Positions 1 through 3,450 of a DNA stretch of 64,000 nucleotides are shown piece by piece. The stretch is from positions 3,779 to 67,778 of IMG/VR virus record IMGVR_UViG_3300031578_004185; one strand, given 5' to 3'. The notes under the pieces are model-generated. The model was not told where the DNA came from. It saw only the letters and a program-made list of their open reading frames with translations, and did no database searches. The stretch is from a virus. Position numbers and translations under genes: made by a program. The stretch's first letter is position 1, and each line of letters begins with the position of its first letter.

Positions 1-1561
1 GACGGACGACTCTGGTGTCGTCGGTATCCGTAATACCCAAGGCAAACTCTGCATATCCTTCGACCCCGCCGACCTGCTAGAATTTCTCCGTTACTCTTCC
101 AAGAAAACAGTGCGGGTTTTCTGGGATCTTGATGCATCTATCGCGTCAGTCCTTAAAACCCTCTCAAAATCGGTTCTGGTGCGTCTGGTGGCGTTTGACG
201 ACGACCTTTCGGTGTCGGGGCACCAGCTCTACTACCTGCCCGACCGGATGTTCCGTGTTGGCCGTTCTCGTTACTACTCTATTAGACAATTCTGGCCAAC
301 CTCTGAGCCGACTCCTGGAACCCTTGAAGAAGTCCAAGCTAAGGCAGACGAACTAGCCGAGACTCTCACCGATTGCGGCATGGGCGACTTCACCCGCTTG
401 GTATCCCCCATATCCGTGTTCGAGGAGACCGAGCTGGGGCAACAGACCTATAACTCTATTCCTAAGGGCTACGAGATACCGCCGTCCTGCTTCGAGTGCT
501 TGGAATATGCGTCCAAGTGTGATAAACGAGAGTGGGTATCAGCATACCAGCTCGGTCATTGGGTAGGGGGCGAGATCTGGGACTACGACGTGAACTCGAT
601 GTACCCTTCCGTAGCATCCAACTTGTTCAATTTACACGAGATGGAGATGTGGAAGTCGGACAAGTTCGGGTCCCGAGAGCAGGGTGCTTACTACGGTTTC
701 CTGCGAGGACGCCTCTACCTTGACCCGTCCTCACCGACTATTCACTGCTCCCCTATTATTGCTGATCTTGAGCGGCTCCCCGGCAACCCCGCCGGAGACT
801 TCGGGGACGACTACCCTCTCACTCTGGACGAACTTCGCCTTATCCAGCGCAACGGCTGGGGGGAGTTCCGTATGAAAGACGGCTGGTTCTTGAAACCTTA
901 CGCTGGTGTCCGCCCTACCAGACCCTTCAAGGAGATTATGGATCATCTCTACCAACAACGCTATAAGTCCGAGCTGGTTAGTTCTATTATAAAGGGTGTC
1001 GCTAATCAGCTAATCGGGAAACTCATTGAGACCCGCGTAGATGGTGATTATGGTAAGTTGAGAAACGATATTTACCACGCTTTAATATTGTCCCAGGCGA
1101 GAGTAAAAGTAGCCGAGTTCCTACTCAATAACGATGTCCAGAAGGACGAGCTGGTAGCCGTGCAGACTGATGGTGTCCGTATGACCAAGTTCGTTCCGGT
1201 GAAGGGCAACGGTATGGGGAGTTGGCGGTGTAATGGAAGCCAAAGCACAATTGTCGCTTCGCCTTACCGAGTTTTCTGTGGTGACAAGAAGCCTGGTCAT
1301 TTGACTCATGATATGCTTGTGTCGATGATACAGGAACATCCTCTCTCAAAATACTATGGAACAAACGTCAAGCATCGTTTAACTTTGCGCCAAGCACTTC
1401 AGATAGGAGATATAGCGTTAGTTGGTACAATTGATAACTTACCTGCACATATTGATTTACTGGCGCTCACTCGCGAGCAAAACAGGAACTTTTCTCGTTT
1501 CCCCCAAACTGGCTCAAGTCTACTTAGCAACCAGTACCAATCCACCCCAATAATTCTTTAG
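1..1561 (+). CDS. Divergent family B DNA polymerase (protein-primed-like), 5' partial
   Basis: Motif A DYDVNSMYPS, motif B KGVANQLIGK, motif C VQTDGV; the frame is open from base 2, so the start lies upstream of the window. Confidence 0.75.
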   Translation, partial: TDDSGVVGIRNTQGKLCISFDPADLLEFLRYSSKKTVRVFWDLDASIASVLKTLSKSVLVRLVAFDDDLSVSGHQLYYLPDRMFRVGRSRYYSIRQFWPTSEPTPGTLEEVQAKADELAETLTDCGMGDFTRLVSPISVFEETELGQQTYNSIPKGYEIPPSCFECLEYASKCDKREWVSAYQLGHWVGGEIWDYDVNSMYPSVASNLFNLHEMEMWKSDKFGSREQGAYYGFLRGRLYLDPSSPTIHCSPIIADLERLPGNPAGDFGDDYPLTLDELRLIQRNGWGEFRMKDGWFLKPYAGVRPTRPFKEIMDHLYQQRYKSELVSSIIKGVANQLIGKLIETRVDGDYGKLRNDIYHALILSQARVKVAEFLLNNDVQKDELVAVQTDGVRMTKFVPVKGNGMGSWRCNGSQSTIVASPYRVFCGDKKPGHLTHDMLVSMIQEHPLSKYYGTNVKHRLTLRQALQIGDIALVGTIDNLPAHIDLLALTREQNRNFSRFPQTGSSLLSNQYQSTPIIL

Positions 1562-1580: not shown

Positions 1581-1609
1581 TTGACAAATGTTCAGTAGTA
1601 TGCTATGCT
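1581..1609 (+). promoter_or_regulatory. sigma70-type promoter with extended -10
   Basis: TTGACA(1581-86), 17 nt, TATGCT(1604-09), TG at 1601-02. Confidence 0.85.
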
Positions 1610-1615
1610 ATTTGT

Positions 1616-1783
1616 ATGGACATTAAAGAGGTTCGCAAGCAGTTGGGAATGACTTCTCAGGACTTGGCTGTAGTTCTCGGTGTATCTGTTGCTACTGTGA
1701 GTCGCTGGGAGACCGGGAAGCACAAGCCTTCCAAGTTGGCTCTGTTGCGTCTGAAGGAGTTGATCGACAAAATGAAAACTTGA
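1616..1783 (+). CDS. XRE/Cro-like HTH regulator (55 aa, probably leaderless)
   Basis: Manual translation MDIKEVRKQLGMTSQDLAVVLGVSVATVSRWETGKHKPSKLALLRL; ATG 7 nt after the -10 box, no SD. Confidence 0.9.
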   Translation: MDIKEVRKQLGMTSQDLAVVLGVSVATVSRWETGKHKPSKLALLRLKELIDKMKT

Positions 1784-1862
1784 TGGTTGCCGTGACTTGA
1801 TTTCGTGTGGCTTGAGGTTCCTTGTATTCAATCGGTTTTTATTAAGCTAAATTAAGCAAAAA
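1778..1862 (+). ncRNA. Candidate guide RNA 1: 5-nt-periodic array (KTG-like trimer + variable NN)
   Basis: TTG cc GTG ac TTG at TTC gt GTG gc TTG ag GTT cc TTG ta TTC aa TCG gt TTT ta TTA ag CTA aa TTA ag; pyrimidine at the trimer centre in 14/14 units; leader ACTTGATGGTTG and trailer TTAAGCTA..AGCAAAA shared with array 2. Confidence 0.65.
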
Positions 1863-1879
1863 GTAGAAGGAGGCATTTT

Positions 1880-2497
1880 ATGCCAACAGCAATACCAGTA
1901 TATTTTTGGGAAGCCGAAGTCGAGGTTGAAACAAATGACTTAGCCTTTTCTCCACAGACTAATACCGAAGGTCGAGGGGCATTGGCGAAGCGGATATTCA
2001 CAGCAGACTGGCTCCACGATGGTCAGGTCTGGTTCAGTCCGTCCAAGAGGCTAGGAGGGTGGCTGAAGTCGCAGTTGCCACTGGCTAGGTCAACCTATGC
2101 TAACCAGATGGCTGCGGTCAAGGTCTTCCCCGCAGATGGTGATGGGGAGTATGTCCTTATTGCCGAAGTGAGCGAGTTGGTTGGAGGCAATAATCCTCTA
2201 CCTATGGCTCATGTGCTACCGAAGGGGTTGTCGTGTCCTTACTGGACATATATTAACGTCCCACAGGAGCGTGGGACTGGGACGAGGGTTGCCCCAACTT
2301 ATTGGTATGAGTTGCATAAACCCGTTGTCCACCGAGTCCGCATCCTGAGCTTTGCTAGGGGCATTAGCCCTGAGATTGTGAAAGAGGCCCTGAGCAAGCT
2401 GGGCAGAGCTACCGGGATTGGCGATAAACATAGTGTTGGGAAGGGCAGATTCAAGTTGGTGAAGTTTGAATATAAGCAAGAGAAATTGGCACTTTAG
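1880..2497 (+). CDS. Solitary RAMP-superfamily protein (Cas7/Csm3-like)
   Basis: C-terminal glycine-rich loop LGRATGIGDKHSVGKGRFKL typical of RAMPs, N-terminal beta strand, 205 aa, strong SD AGGAGG; no other cas genes recognised. Confidence 0.75.
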   Translation: MPTAIPVYFWEAEVEVETNDLAFSPQTNTEGRGALAKRIFTADWLHDGQVWFSPSKRLGGWLKSQLPLARSTYANQMAAVKVFPADGDGEYVLIAEVSELVGGNNPLPMAHVLPKGLSCPYWTYINVPQERGTGTRVAPTYWYELHKPVVHRVRILSFARGISPEIVKEALSKLGRATGIGDKHSVGKGRFKLVKFEYKQEKLAL

Positions 2498-2507
2498 GAT
2501 ACTTGAG

Positions 2508-2587
2508 ACTTGATGGTTGAGTGTGGTACGCAGTTCAGTGTCGCGTGTCTCCTTGGATTGTACTGGGTTGTGTTAAGCTAAGCAAAA
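2508..2587 (+). ncRNA. Candidate guide RNA 2: 5-nt-periodic array
   Basis: Same 12-nt leader ACTTGATGGTTG (2508-19); GTG gt ACG ca GTT ca GTG tc GCG tg TCT cc TTG ga TTG ta CTG gg TTG tg TTA ag CTA ag CAAAA; central pyrimidine 12/12. Confidence 0.55.
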
Positions 2588-2604
2588 TATTACCGAGGTT
2601 GGAA

Positions 2605-3030
2605 ATGACGGAAAACGAGATAAACGAGAAGGTCAAAGAGTGGTTGACTAGCCAAGGGTACGTCTATAAGGGTGTCCTAAATGCCAAGCCTAAAGAGGGT
2701 GCTAATCCGAATGGCTATGGTCAAGTAGCAGTCCCCGACGGAACTAGGGATGTTCTTATTGACCATACCGGACACAAAGATAGACCTGTTGACCTTATTT
2801 GGATAGAAGCTAAAGGTTCAGGCATCGGATTGTCTATGCTCCTTCAGGGGTTCGCCAGAGTTGGCTACGCCGTTTATCATGGGGGCGGGCGAGGGTTACT
2901 TGCCTGTCCTGCTACCGAGTTTGATACGATGTTCGCCCAAAGGGATTTTCTGAAGGCTATCGGAGTCGCCAGTGAGAGGTCTTTGGGACTGCTGGATGGA
3001 GAGTCCGGGAGAGTTGAGTGGCTGACCTAA
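2605..3030 (+). CDS. PD-(D/E)XK restriction-endonuclease-like protein
   Basis: DVLIDH...LIWIEAKG catalytic pattern; probable start ATG 2605 after GAGG. Confidence 0.6.
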   Translation: MTENEINEKVKEWLTSQGYVYKGVLNAKPKEGANPNGYGQVAVPDGTRDVLIDHTGHKDRPVDLIWIEAKGSGIGLSMLLQGFARVGYAVYHGGGRGLLACPATEFDTMFAQRDFLKAIGVASERSLGLLDGESGRVEWLT

Positions 3031-3037
3031 GCAACTT

Positions 3038-3226
3038 ATGGGAGTTACACTGAGACAGGCGATCCAGCAGGGGGACGTCAGCAAAGTGGGGGAGCTGGAC
3101 GATCTACCTGCTCACTTGGATCTGATAGGGATTACTAGGGAGCAGAACAGGTACTTCCCGAAGCTCCCTAAGACAGGTAGGGCGTTGCTGAACGGGAGGT
3201 ACCAGTCGAAGGCAGTAGTCCTCTAG
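3038..3226 (+). pseudogene. Orphan C-terminal fragment of the polB-like gene (second allele)
   Basis: TLRQAIQQGDVSKVGELDDLPAHLDLIGITREQNRYFPKLPKTG aligns with TLRQALQIGDIALVGTIDNLPAHIDLLALTREQNRNFSRFPQTG at the end of 1..1561. Confidence 0.85.
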
Positions 3227-3231
3227 GGGTA

Positions 3232-3260
3232 TTGACAAACACTAAAGCCTGTGATAAGGT
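3232..3260 (+). promoter_or_regulatory. sigma70-type promoter
   Basis: TTGACA, 17 nt, TAAGGT with TG extension. Confidence 0.7.
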
Positions 3261-3270
3261 GGTAGGTAGC

Positions 3271-3450
3271 ATGAGAGCAGACGATATCCGAAGAATAAGG
3301 CTCAGTTTGAGTATGTCCCAGCAGCGATTCGCCGAGAGGCTGGGGGTCAGCATTACCACCGTGAACAGATGGGAGCGTGGTCGCTCTAACCCCTCTCCTC
3401 TTGCTCTGACACGGTTGCGAAGGATGCAGCGGAAGGTGGTGGTGGAATGA
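3271..3450 (+). CDS. XRE/Cro-like HTH regulator (paralog of 1616..1783)
   Basis: MRADDIRRIRLSLSMSQQRFAERLGVSITTVNRWERGRSNPSPLAL. Confidence 0.9.
   Translation: MRADDIRRIRLSLSMSQQRFAERLGVSITTVNRWERGRSNPSPLALTRLRRMQRKVVVE

What the first reader, a model, noticed from the sequence alone, without database searches (positions are those of the whole stretch)
1778..3030. Solitary RAMP flanked by two 5-nt-periodic arrays: candidate RNA-guided system with a non-contiguous code
Seen: a stand-alone RAMP-like gene (G-rich loop GIGDKHSVGKGRF) lies between two 70-85-nt intergenic segments. Both share a 12-nt leader (ACTTGATGGTTG at 1778 and 2508) and a TTAAGCTA..AGCAAAA trailer. Between leader and trailer each reads as (K/N)-Y-G trimers alternating with variable dinucleotides at a strict 5-nt period (central pyrimidine 14/14 and 12/12; third base G in 7/10 and 8/10 of the first units). 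All lie downstream of one sigma70 promoter, with a nuclease gene last. Knowledge: RAMPs (Cas5/6/7) polymerise on RNA in fixed-length segments. From memory, phage VIPR systems were recently described as a RAMP plus GGY/NN RNAs in which the NNs specify a gapped DNA target. Inference: this is a VIPR-like system with a different fixed motif (TTG/GTG rather than GGY), two guides and an associated nuclease.
Basis: partly seen in the sequence, partly recalled or inferred. Interest (0 to 1): 0.95.

Follow-up and report, generated by a model that had tools for sequence, protein, structure and literature searches.

The report
Phage VIPR system with UUG-type guides
A virus genome carries a small CRISPR-like protein flanked by two guide-RNA-like arrays of five-base repeats. 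It belongs to the VIPR systems first described in 2026, but uses a different fixed repeat motif, has a nuclease partner, and sits next to the viral DNA polymerase gene that its guides seem to be aimed at.

Summary
The interpretation, a VIPR-like system with a non-GGY scaffold, is supported.

- **Protein:** ORF 1880-2497 folds (pLDDT 90.6) as a minimal single-RRM RAMP. Four of the five AlphaFold-DB proteins that seeded the VIPR discovery paper are among its 12 best structural matches.
- **Arrays:** two intergenic arrays (1785-1844 and 2521-2575) consist of NN-K-T-G units. Each has a 5' ATGGTTG leader and a 3' TTAAGCTAA tail. A matrix trained only on other loci ranks them first and second in the whole 68-kb genome.
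- **Relatives:** all 37 homologous metagenomic loci carry such arrays beside the gene, on the same strand. The NN positions are effectively random between loci.
- **Accessory gene:** ORF 2605-3030 has a PD-(D/E)xK nuclease fold with an invariant D/E/K triad.
- **Targets:** among eight recognition models tested, only the published VIPR rule (NN read, one base skipped) gives an excess of good matches. Several of those matches lie in polB genes of related viruses.
- **Position:** the cassette lies after, before or inside polB.

VIPR, including non-canonical motifs, is already published in 2026 preprints, and this scan has met VIPR on other DNA at least 19 times. This is therefore a new variant of a known kind. 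RNA-guided homing into polB is possible but unproven.

The parts
2..1561 (+). Protein-primed family-B DNA polymerase gene (polB). The full ORF starts 67 nt before the window. It holds the best in-genome match to array 1, at 1244-1276 (STIVASPYRVF).
   Evidence: Weak Pfam DNA_pol_B_2 hit. tblastn links it to polB of L011, L021, L028 and others. 7 of 11 dinucleotides match exactly and in frame.
1581..1609 (+). Sigma70-like promoter TTGACA-17-TATGCT with an extended -10 TG.
   Evidence: 10 of 12 matches. No terminator-like site lies between it and 3600.
1616..1783 (+). Small Xre-type HTH gene, first gene of the cassette. Its last codons overlap the array leader.
   Evidence: Pfam HTH_3, E 3e-13. 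The same gene-plus-array arrangement occurs in L001, and several other loci read the same way upstream.
1778..1863 (+). vrRNA-like array 1. Leader ACTTGATGGTTG (1778-1789), 12 NN-KTG units (1785-1844), tail TTAAGCTAA..AAGCAAAAAG (1842-1863).
   Evidence: (28.0 bits, best in the genome). Not more structured than shuffles, z +0.54.
1880..2497 (+). vipr-like gene: minimal single-RRM RAMP of 205 aa. The G-loop is at residues 179-189, with invariant D182.
2508..2590 (+). vrRNA-like array 2. Same leader (2508-2519), 11 NN-KYG units (2521-2575), tail TTAAGCTAAGCAAAA (2573-2587).
   Evidence: 19.9 bits, second best in the genome. Identical in contigs of marine-sediment runs.
2605..3030 (+). Accessory (vap-like) gene: 141-aa protein with a PD-(D/E)xK nuclease fold. 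D53, E68 and K70 are invariant.
   Evidence: The alignment of 21 orthologues gives the invariant residues. AF2 pLDDT 89.9. XisH 2inb E 7e-5, plus Can2 and Mrr-type nucleases. AFDB X1M716 Mrr domain, E 1e-9, TM 0.70/0.80.
3038..3450 (+). Diverged second copy of the module polB 3' end (3038-3226) - promoter - HTH (3271-3450). Likely a remnant of the recipient genome's allele, left by the recombination that brought in the cassette.
   Evidence: 55% aa identity to polB residues 483-542. Colinear DNA alignment. Second HTH_3 hit.

Best explanation
This is a virus-encoded VIPR-type RNA-guided DNA-recognition system with a non-canonical guide scaffold.

**Proposed mechanism.** One promoter at about 1581 drives the order HTH - array 1 - vipr - array 2 - nuclease. 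Each array is proposed to give an RNA of about 75-85 nt with three parts:
- a 5' AUGGUUG end;
- 11-12 pentamers of two free bases plus a fixed (U/G)-U-G;
- a short 3' tail, UUAAGCUAA.

By analogy with the solved SUSP1 complex, one RAMP protomer binds each pentamer. It sequesters the K-U-G bases and presents the NN pairs. The NN pairs read double-stranded DNA while skipping every third base, which is the codon wobble position.

**Likely targets.** The most likely targets are alleles of the protein-primed DNA polymerase gene (polB) of competing related viruses. The resident polB escapes because four of the 11 dinucleotides do not match exactly (7 of 22 bases differ).

**Role of the accessory protein.** The PD-(D/E)xK protein probably acts on the bound target.

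**Shown and inferred.**
- Shown: the fold, the array architecture and its conservation, the nuclease fold, and the linkage to polB.
- Statistically suggested: the 1-nt-skip rule and the polB targets.
- Inferred only: RNA expression and processing, filament formation, and silencing versus cleavage.
For: **Fold.**
- AF2 model pLDDT 90.6.
- AFDB rank 1, 4, 9 and 12 are four of the five Vipr seed proteins listed in the VIPR paper's methods.
- The G-loop TGIGDKHSVGKGRF aligns to SUSP1 Vipr CGVGDWRPRFGRF. The invariant D182 falls on D177, which contacts G1.

**Arrays.**
- They are the top two scores in the genome with an independently trained matrix.
- They are present on the same strand directly upstream and/or downstream of the gene in all 37 homologous loci, often with a third array after the nuclease gene. 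In total there are 61 distinct arrays of 8-23 units.
- NN positions mismatch at 73% between arrays, which is about random, while T4 mismatches at 5%.
- There is no Rfam family and no excess structure.

**Code.** In a 362-kb local database, only the model of NN read with a 1-nt skip gives an excess.
- 9 of 61 arrays beat shuffles at p<=0.05, binomial P 0.003. Skips 0, 2 and 3 give 2, 2 and 0 arrays. The four other dinucleotide registers give 0-2.
- 8 arrays have a match of 80% or better, against 3.35 +/- 1.6 for shuffled arrays.
- All ten listed top hits put the skipped base on codon position 3.

**Targets.**
- 4 of the 9 best arrays hit polB, which makes up about 8.5% of the database (my estimate).
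- Two arrays match the rival polB allele better than their own: 19/22 against 15/22, and 22/28 against 18/28.
- The best exact-dinucleotide site for window array 1 in the whole genome is polB 1244-1276, in frame. Shuffled arrays reach that score inside polB in 0.2% of trials.
- The homologous polB site of L011 scores 16/22.

**Accessory gene.** PD-(D/E)xK fold with invariant D53/E68/K70.
Against: - No RNA data exist for these arrays. The one metatranscriptome-labelled run covers only part of the nuclease gene and may be DNA.
- Sequence-level homology to characterised Vipr proteins is limited to the G-loop: hhalign probability 12%, E 0.0024. A profile search did not reach any named Vipr.
- The tail is short and no pseudoknot is evident.
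- Exact 10-dinucleotide, 1-nt-skip patterns of both window arrays found nothing in the viral contig collection.
- The window arrays' own best matches (15-16 of 22) are at chance level by base count. The genome-wide P for the polB site is only about 0.10.
- The local database is small and enriched for polB, and some arrays are related to one another, so the target statistics are suggestive only.
- In one run, a shuffled-array replicate also reached 8 arrays with a match of 80% or better.
Confidence: 0.85

Rival explanations
1. RNA-guided homing or marker exclusion. The vrRNA-Vipr filament marks a rival polB allele and the PD-(D/E)xK protein cuts it. Repair from the cassette-bearing genome then copies the cassette and its immune polB flank into the rival, as free-standing homing endonuclease genes do. 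This extends the best explanation rather than contradicting it.
For: - The cassette is always near polB when enough flank is available. It lies after polB (window, L011, L021, L028), before it (L010, L014-17, L019, L030, L035) or inside it (L006, L007 and L009; L008's contig ends before the C-terminal part could be seen).
- In L007 the N-terminal polB fragment ends ..GAWE, and the C-terminal fragment restarts at MPVYDYD, which is motif A.
- The L007 array's target in L006 lies 5-15 codons before the insertion point.
- The window keeps a diverged remnant of a polB 3' end plus HTH just after the cassette.
- The nuclease fold has an intact triad.
Against: - No cleavage is shown.
- The characterised VIPRs act by repression.
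- L001 and L002 carry the cassette with no polB within +/-5 kb.
- No cassette-free sister genome with an intact matching target was found, and IMG/VR holds no relatives.
- Linkage to polB could simply reflect a permissive recombination hotspot.
Confidence: 0.3
2. TRAP-like autoregulation. The protein binds the periodic leader RNAs only to control translation of the genes that follow. The NN positions are neutral spacers and carry no code.
For: - Each array ends a few bases before the ribosome-binding site of the next gene.
- The B. subtilis TRAP protein is known to bind 11 (G/U)AG triplets spaced by 2-3 nt (own knowledge).
- Random NN positions are also what neutral drift would give.
Against: - Many loci carry tandem arrays, or arrays after the last gene with no ORF to regulate.
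- The conserved 5' leader and 3' tail suggest discrete RNAs.
- The excess of matches specific to the NN register and 1-nt skip, the codon-phase bias and the non-self over self scores are not expected from spacers.
- The protein's fold relatives are guide-RNA-presenting RAMPs.
Confidence: 0.06
3. DNA-level repeats: binding sites for the HTH protein, or replication elements of a protein-primed genome, rather than RNA.
For: The arrays lie beside polB and a small DNA-binding gene.
Against: - Strict strand polarity relative to the RAMP gene across 37 loci. Only 2 of about 80 array hits lie on the other strand.
- A 5-nt period with one invariant base is unlike operator or iteron designs.
- The upstream small gene varies (HTH, zinc ribbon, RHH, DUF7557) while the arrays track the RAMP.
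Confidence: 0.03

Closest known systems
VIPR systems (Vipr + vrRNA + Vap): type II of Escherichia phage SUSP1 and the P. fulva prophage. bioRxiv 10.64898/2026.04.26.720920, 10.64898/2026.04.26.720927, 10.64898/2026.10.15.759431
   Same: - Viral genome.
- Minimal RAMP of about 200 aa with a G-loop.
- Arrays of 9-16 or so pentamers with 3 fixed and 2 hypervariable bases, lying upstream and downstream of the gene, with an invariant 3' tail.
- A two-gene core with an accessory DNA-acting protein.
- Apparent 1-nt-skip, wobble-aligned targets in competing elements.
- Self scores lower than non-self scores.
   Different: - The fixed trimer is (U/G)-U-G with an invariant central U, not G-G-Y.
- The two G-loop residues after the conserved Asp are K-H, not W-R.
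- The model shows no N-terminal helical bundle; the N-terminus is beta strands.
- The tail is about 15 nt with no evident pseudoknot, and there is a conserved 5' AUGGUUG.
- The accessory protein is a PD-(D/E)xK nuclease, not the DNA-binding Vap1.
- The cassette is tied to, and sometimes splits, polB.
- Sequence similarity to SUSP1 Vipr is confined to the G-loop.
Non-canonical VIPR arrays found by a genomic language model (bioRxiv 10.64898/2026.10.21.760802): 21 clusters with fixed trimers such as GAC, CAC, WGT and TGH
   Same: Five-nt arrays of about 10 units with a non-GGY fixed trimer, next to a protein structurally like Vipr X1U2U4.
   Different: - KTG is not among the motifs named in the text. 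The figure listing all motifs could not be read.
- That paper reports no targets, no polB linkage and no nuclease partner for these clusters.
Class 1 CRISPR backbone RAMPs (Cas7/Csm3/Cmr4, Cas7-11, type VII Cas7)
   Same: RRM core, G-rich loop and thumb; best solved-structure matches; a fixed-length RNA segment per protomer.
   Different: No CRISPR array, no other cas genes, a 5-nt rather than 6-nt register, and a guide made of scaffold repeats rather than a contiguous spacer.
Free-standing homing endonuclease genes of phages (T4 seg/mob genes and insertions that split phage genes; own knowledge)
   Same: A nuclease-bearing cassette inserted beside or inside an essential replication gene, a target close to the insertion point, an immune resident allele, and diverged flanking remnants.
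   Different: Here specificity would come from an RNA-RAMP filament rather than from the nuclease protein. Cleavage and homing are untested.

Membership tests
VIPR system | Vipr protein: stand-alone minimal RAMP (single RRM, G-loop, thumb) outside any CRISPR-cas locus | tested here: met
   - AF2 pLDDT 90.6.
- Four of the five published Vipr seeds are in the top 12 AFDB hits.
- No cas genes or CRISPR repeats nearby.
VIPR system | Sequence homology to the Vipr family (PSI-BLAST family seeded on X1U2U4) | tested here: inconclusive
   - hhalign to SUSP1 Vipr aligns only the G-loop (E 0.0024, probability 12%).
- Profile searches returned only unnamed metagenomic proteins.
- The X1U2U4 sequence itself was not available to compare.
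VIPR system | vrRNA: tandem pentanucleotide repeats with three constrained and two hypervariable positions, about 9-16 units, flanking vipr | tested here: met
   - 12 and 11 units in the window. 61 arrays of 8-23 units across 37 loci.
- Information per column: 0.05, 0.02, 0.49, 1.84 and 0.32 bits.
VIPR system | Canonical GGY fixed motif (YNNGG) | tested here: not met
   The fixed motif is K-T-G, with T at 88-98%. The SUSP1 arrays, read for comparison, are GGT/NN. Non-canonical motifs are accepted in the later literature.
VIPR system | Invariant structured 3' tail (a pseudoknot in the SUSP1 clade) | tested here: inconclusive
   A conserved tail TT(A/G)AGCTAAAC is present. It is short, and folding shows no excess structure.
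VIPR system | Arrays expressed as RNAs of about 100 nt that co-purify with Vipr | not testable with these tools
   No RNA run holds the arrays.
VIPR system | Target recognition by NN pairs with a 1-nt skip, the skip falling on the wobble position | tested here: inconclusive
   - Only this model, out of 8 tested, shows an excess (P about 0.003).
- In the best hits the skipped base is at codon position 3.
- Non-self scores exceed self scores.
- The database is small and no perfect target was found.
VIPR system | Adjacent accessory (vap) gene acting on DNA; viral genome context | tested here: met
   The PD-(D/E)xK fold gene is conserved in the 21 loci aligned. The genome is a 68-kb virus record.
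Homing endonuclease cassette | A nuclease that cuts the cassette-free allele near the insertion site, and biased inheritance of the cassette | not testable with these tools
   Only circumstantial support: polB linkage, a split polB, a target next to the junction, and a remnant allele.

The most novel reading that the evidence does not exclude
The cassette is an RNA-guided homing or marker-exclusion element. Its vrRNA-Vipr filaments recognise rival alleles of the viral polB gene through the wobble-skipping code. The PD-(D/E)xK partner cuts there, and repair copies the cassette, with its immune polB flank, into the rival genome, even splitting polB in some lineages. The fixed trimer of the guide scaffold has been re-specified repeatedly (KUG, GUC, NUC, NUU, BUA, YCA, NCA), together with the G-loop residue after the invariant Asp.
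Probability: 0.3. Interest if true: 0.85.

Novelty: new variant of a known kind. Interest (0 to 1): 0.6.

Why it matters
VIPR is only months old as a concept, and the tested examples are GGY-scaffold systems that act by repression.

- **Scaffold tolerance.** This metagenomic family shows that the protein-RNA scaffold tolerates wholesale changes of the fixed trimer. It also points to one G-loop position as a candidate specificity determinant. That is directly testable and useful for engineering orthogonal VIPR tools.
- **A possible new mobility mode.** The link to a PD-(D/E)xK nuclease and to polB, including a split polB, suggests that RAMP-guided recognition may also drive gene conversion between competing viruses. 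That would be an RNA-guided counterpart of homing endonucleases.

Tried and rejected
- **Viral contig scans.** Exact 1-nt-skip patterns of 10 dinucleotides for both window arrays gave 0 hits in viral contigs. Relatives of the RAMP and of polB were sought in IMG/VR with a single protein and with alignments, and none was found. The genome-contig scan for the RAMP also found none.
- **Records not held.** Searching the long contigs behind L001, L002, L013, L016 and L017 failed because those records are not held.
- **Annotation libraries.** Pfam, NCBIfam and PDB sequence searches of the RAMP give nothing beyond a weak Csm4 G-loop hit. The PDB profile hits to Ig Fc are spurious.
- **Other recognition models.** Skip 0, 2 and 3 and the four other dinucleotide registers show no excess.
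- **YNNNG reading.** I considered reading the arrays as the published 'YNNNG' variant (U3-N4-N5-N1-K2). I rejected it because the information-free columns are the two after G. Only those two columns give target enrichment.
- **G-loop prediction.** I predicted that G-loop 'GDM' always means a YCA scaffold. This was only partly borne out: L039 and L043 use YCA, but L044 uses BTA.
- **Array 1 against resident polB.** The site is the best exact-dinucleotide site in the genome, but genome-wide P is about 0.10. It becomes notable only given the family-wide polB targeting.
- **Homologous array pairs.** The mismatch-by-column analysis on related array pairs had too few truly related pairs to be informative.
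- **Not run.** No complex prediction was made.
Full report
**What is there.** The window is most of a 68-kb single-contig virus genome. After the protein-primed polB gene (2-1561) comes one sigma70-like promoter, TTGACA-17-TATGCT, at 1581-1609. Five features follow in order:
- an Xre-type HTH gene (1616-1783);
- an 85-nt non-coding segment;
- a 205-aa ORF (1880-2497);
- an 83-nt non-coding segment;
- a 141-aa ORF (2605-3030).

No terminator-like site and no Rfam family occur in this stretch.

Both non-coding segments begin with ACTTGATGGTTG (1778, 2508). Both end with TTAAGCTAA...AGCAAAA (1842, 2573). Phased from the trailer, both read as pentamers of two free bases followed by K-Y-G. The central base is a pyrimidine in 12/12 units of each array.

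I trained a 5-column matrix on 12 arrays taken only from other loci. With it the two window arrays score 28.0 and 19.9 bits. They are the two best sites on either strand of the entire genome. The next best site scores 12.4 bits. Shuffled genomes reach 12.5 +/- 2.3 bits, with a maximum of 17.8.

**The protein is a Vipr-like RAMP.**
- Homologues: 41 were found at 51-90% identity, all metagenomic. An exhaustive search adds distant relatives down to 28% identity.
- Link to VIPR: in the clustered AlphaFold DB, ranks 1, 4, 9 and 12 are A0A1F4YLN4, X1U2U4, A0A0F9A1L0 and A0A2D6XG06. The VIPR discovery paper lists five seed proteins, and these are four of them.
- Sequence level: only the G-loop is recognisable. 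There is a PADLOC Csm4 hit at E 3e-5. An hhalign match puts TGIGDKHSVGKGRF against SUSP1 Vipr CGVGDWRPRFGRF.
- SUSP1 contacts: I located SUSP1's vipr gene and its GGT/NN arrays in KT454805 for comparison. In the SUSP1 structure, D177, W178 and R179 of this loop hold G1, G2 and Y3. The equivalent residues here are D182, K183 and H184. D182 is invariant across the family.

**The arrays travel with the gene.**
- All 37 homologous loci that were fetched show high-scoring arrays on the gene's strand. They lie about 80 nt upstream and/or 5-50 nt downstream of the gene, and often again after the accessory gene. Only two hits lie on the opposite strand.
- There are 61 distinct arrays of 8-23 units. 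Most start from (A)TGGTTG, which often overlaps the RAMP stop codon. Most end in TT(A/G)AGCTAAAC.
- Between arrays the two N columns mismatch at 73%, which is essentially random. This holds even though the neighbouring proteins are 51-90% identical. The central T mismatches at 5%.
- The arrays fold no better than shuffled sequence (z +0.5 and +0.3). That fits a protein-bound, extended RNA.
- Contigs from marine-sediment runs carry the same locus with an identical array 2. They also show loose ends in which the same leader is followed by different units.

**The scaffold motif varies by clade.** In more distant relatives, de novo period-5 detection finds arrays beside the gene with other fixed trimers. 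The table pairs each trimer with the residue after the invariant G-loop Asp.

| Locus | Identity to window protein | Fixed trimer | G-loop residue after Asp |
|---|---|---|---|
| Window clade | - | KUG | K |
| L046 | 32% | GUC | K |
| L048 | 33% | NUC | C |
| L042, L047 | 31%, 35% | NUU | R |
| L044 | 33% | BUA | M |
| L039 | 39% | YCA | M |
| L043 | 28% | YCA | M |
| L040 | 34% | NCA | G |
| SUSP1 | G-loop only | GGY | W |

The correlation is suggestive but imperfect. It rests on nine loci, which give eight scaffold types (the table rows).

**The accessory gene.** The 141-aa protein is conserved in 21 loci, with invariant D53, H54, E68 and K70. Its model (pLDDT 89.9) matches PD-(D/E)xK nucleases:
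- XisH proteins 2inb and 2okf (E 7e-5);
- Can2 nuclease domains, Mrr and MspJI-type enzymes and Hjc;
- an Mrr-domain protein in AFDB at E 1e-9, TM 0.70/0.80.

**Does the published code apply?** I scanned all 61 arrays against 362 kb of DNA, made up of the genome plus all close-relative loci with the arrays masked. I tested skips of 0-3 bases and all five dinucleotide registers. Controls were shuffles of each array's unit order.
- Only the combination used by VIPR shows an excess: the two information-free columns read with one base skipped. Nine of 61 arrays beat shuffles at p<=0.05 (binomial P 0.003). Every other model gives 0-2 arrays.
- Eight arrays have a match of 80% or better, against 3.35 +/- 1.6 for shuffled arrays.
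- In all ten listed top hits, the skipped base falls on codon position 3 of a long ORF. For shuffled arrays this happens about 30% of the time.

This supports the VIPR rule, but the database is small and some arrays are related. I treat the rule as probable, not shown.

**Targets and genomic position.**
- Four of the nine best arrays hit polB genes of related viruses. By my estimate, polB is about 8.5% of the database.
- The array shared by L007-L009 matches L006 polB at 19/22, against 15/22 at its own homologous site. L006's array matches L009 polB at 22/28, against 18/28 at its own.
- Another pair of related arrays (L004, L005) matches an ERCC4-like gene in L013 at 17/20 and 18/20. Each matches at positions where the other does not.
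I tested it. It is the single best exact-dinucleotide site in the genome, with 7 of 11 matching, in frame. Shuffled arrays reach this score somewhere in the genome in 10.4% of trials. They reach it inside polB in only 0.2%. The homologous site of L011's polB scores 16/22 and matches two dinucleotides that the resident allele does not.
- Window array 2 has only chance-level matches. The best, 15/22, is again in a polB motif.
- Exact 10-dinucleotide patterns of both arrays found nothing in the viral contig collection. That collection holds no relatives of this virus group.

**Linkage to polB.** tblastn shows the cassette in three positions relative to polB:
- directly after polB: window, L011, L021, L028;
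- directly before polB: L010, L014-17, L019, L030, L035;
- inside polB: L006, L007 and L009.

In L008 only the N-terminal polB fragment lies on the contig. In L007 the N-terminal polB fragment ends ...GAWE. The C-terminal fragment restarts with its own ATG at MPVYDYD, which is motif A, just after the third array. In the window, a diverged second copy of 'polB 3' end - promoter - HTH' follows the nuclease gene at 3038-3450. It shares 55% aa identity with polB residues 483-542. That looks like the recipient's allele left behind by recombination.

These features resemble free-standing homing endonuclease cassettes. However, L001 and L002 carry the cassette away from polB, no cleavage is shown, and no cassette-free sister genome was available. 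I give RNA-guided homing or marker exclusion about 0.3.

**Comparison with what is known.** VIPR was described in 2026.
- The discovery and structure preprints cover Vipr plus YNNGG vrRNAs, the 1-nt skip rule, seven types and vap1-6.
- An October 2026 preprint on competition reports lower self than non-self guide scores.
- Another October 2026 preprint reports 21 clusters of VIPR-like arrays with non-GGY trimers such as GAC, CAC, WGT and TGH.
- This scan has also met VIPR on other DNA at least 19 times. Those cases include non-canonical scaffolds and HNH-armed cassettes for which homing was proposed.

The kind of system is therefore known. Four things are new here, as far as I could check:
- the K-U-G scaffold and the series of scaffold changes within one protein family;
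- the conserved 5' AUGGUUG leader and the short tail;
- the PD-(D/E)xK partner;
- the tight association with polB, sometimes interrupting it, together with guides that look aimed at rival polB alleles.

The family is almost wholly metagenomic. The only NCBI records found are clusters on short contigs of 5.6 kb or less and one 19-kb contig. Such contigs would have been dropped by the discovery paper's 20-kb contig filter.

**Verdict.** This is a new variant of a known kind, and interest is moderate to high because of the scaffold series and the possible RNA-guided homing.

Noticed in passing
window 3038-3450: A diverged, colinear second copy of 'polB 3' end - promoter - HTH gene' lies directly after the nuclease gene. 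The polB part shares 55% aa identity with polB residues 483-542. It looks like a scar of the recombination that installed the cassette.
   Followed up: partly
L007:3-275 and L007:1755-2726 (also L006 and L009; L008 shows only the N-terminal fragment): The whole cassette splits the polB gene. The split falls between the N-terminal part, which ends ..GAWE, and motif A. The C-terminal fragment has its own start, MPVYDYD.
   Followed up: partly
L039, L040, L042, L043, L044, L046, L047, L048: Distant relatives of the RAMP (28-39% identity) carry 5-nt arrays with other fixed trimers: YCA, NCA, NUU, BUA, GUC and NUC. The G-loop residue after the invariant Asp changes in parallel (M, G, R, M, K, C).
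   Followed up: partly
L013:231-263: Two related but diverged arrays (L004, L005) both match one site in an ERCC4/Mus81-like nuclease gene of another virus, at 17/20 and 18/20. Each matches where the other does not.
   Followed up: partly
L008:1187-1585 and L009:1400-1803: In these loci an extra unknown gene (starting MPNNG.. in L008 and MSNNG.. in L009) and an extra array sit between the RAMP's downstream array and the nuclease gene.
   Followed up: no
upstream of the RAMP gene in L002, L007, L012, L014, L042, L048: The small gene preceding the first array varies between loci: Xre HTH, zinc ribbon (C-x2-C ... C-x2-C), RHH_12 or DUF7557. All are likely small DNA- or RNA-binding proteins, perhaps regulators of the cassette.
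   Followed up: no
window 2488 and 1763 (loose ends in runs X4, X5): Marine-sediment metagenome contigs match the flanks. They then continue with the same ATGGTTG leader followed by different repeat units. This means array variants co-exist in one sample.
   Followed up: no
window 2704-2876: A 173-nt contig from a run labelled metatranscriptomic matches the nuclease gene exactly. This may reflect expression, or it may be DNA carry-over.
   Followed up: no
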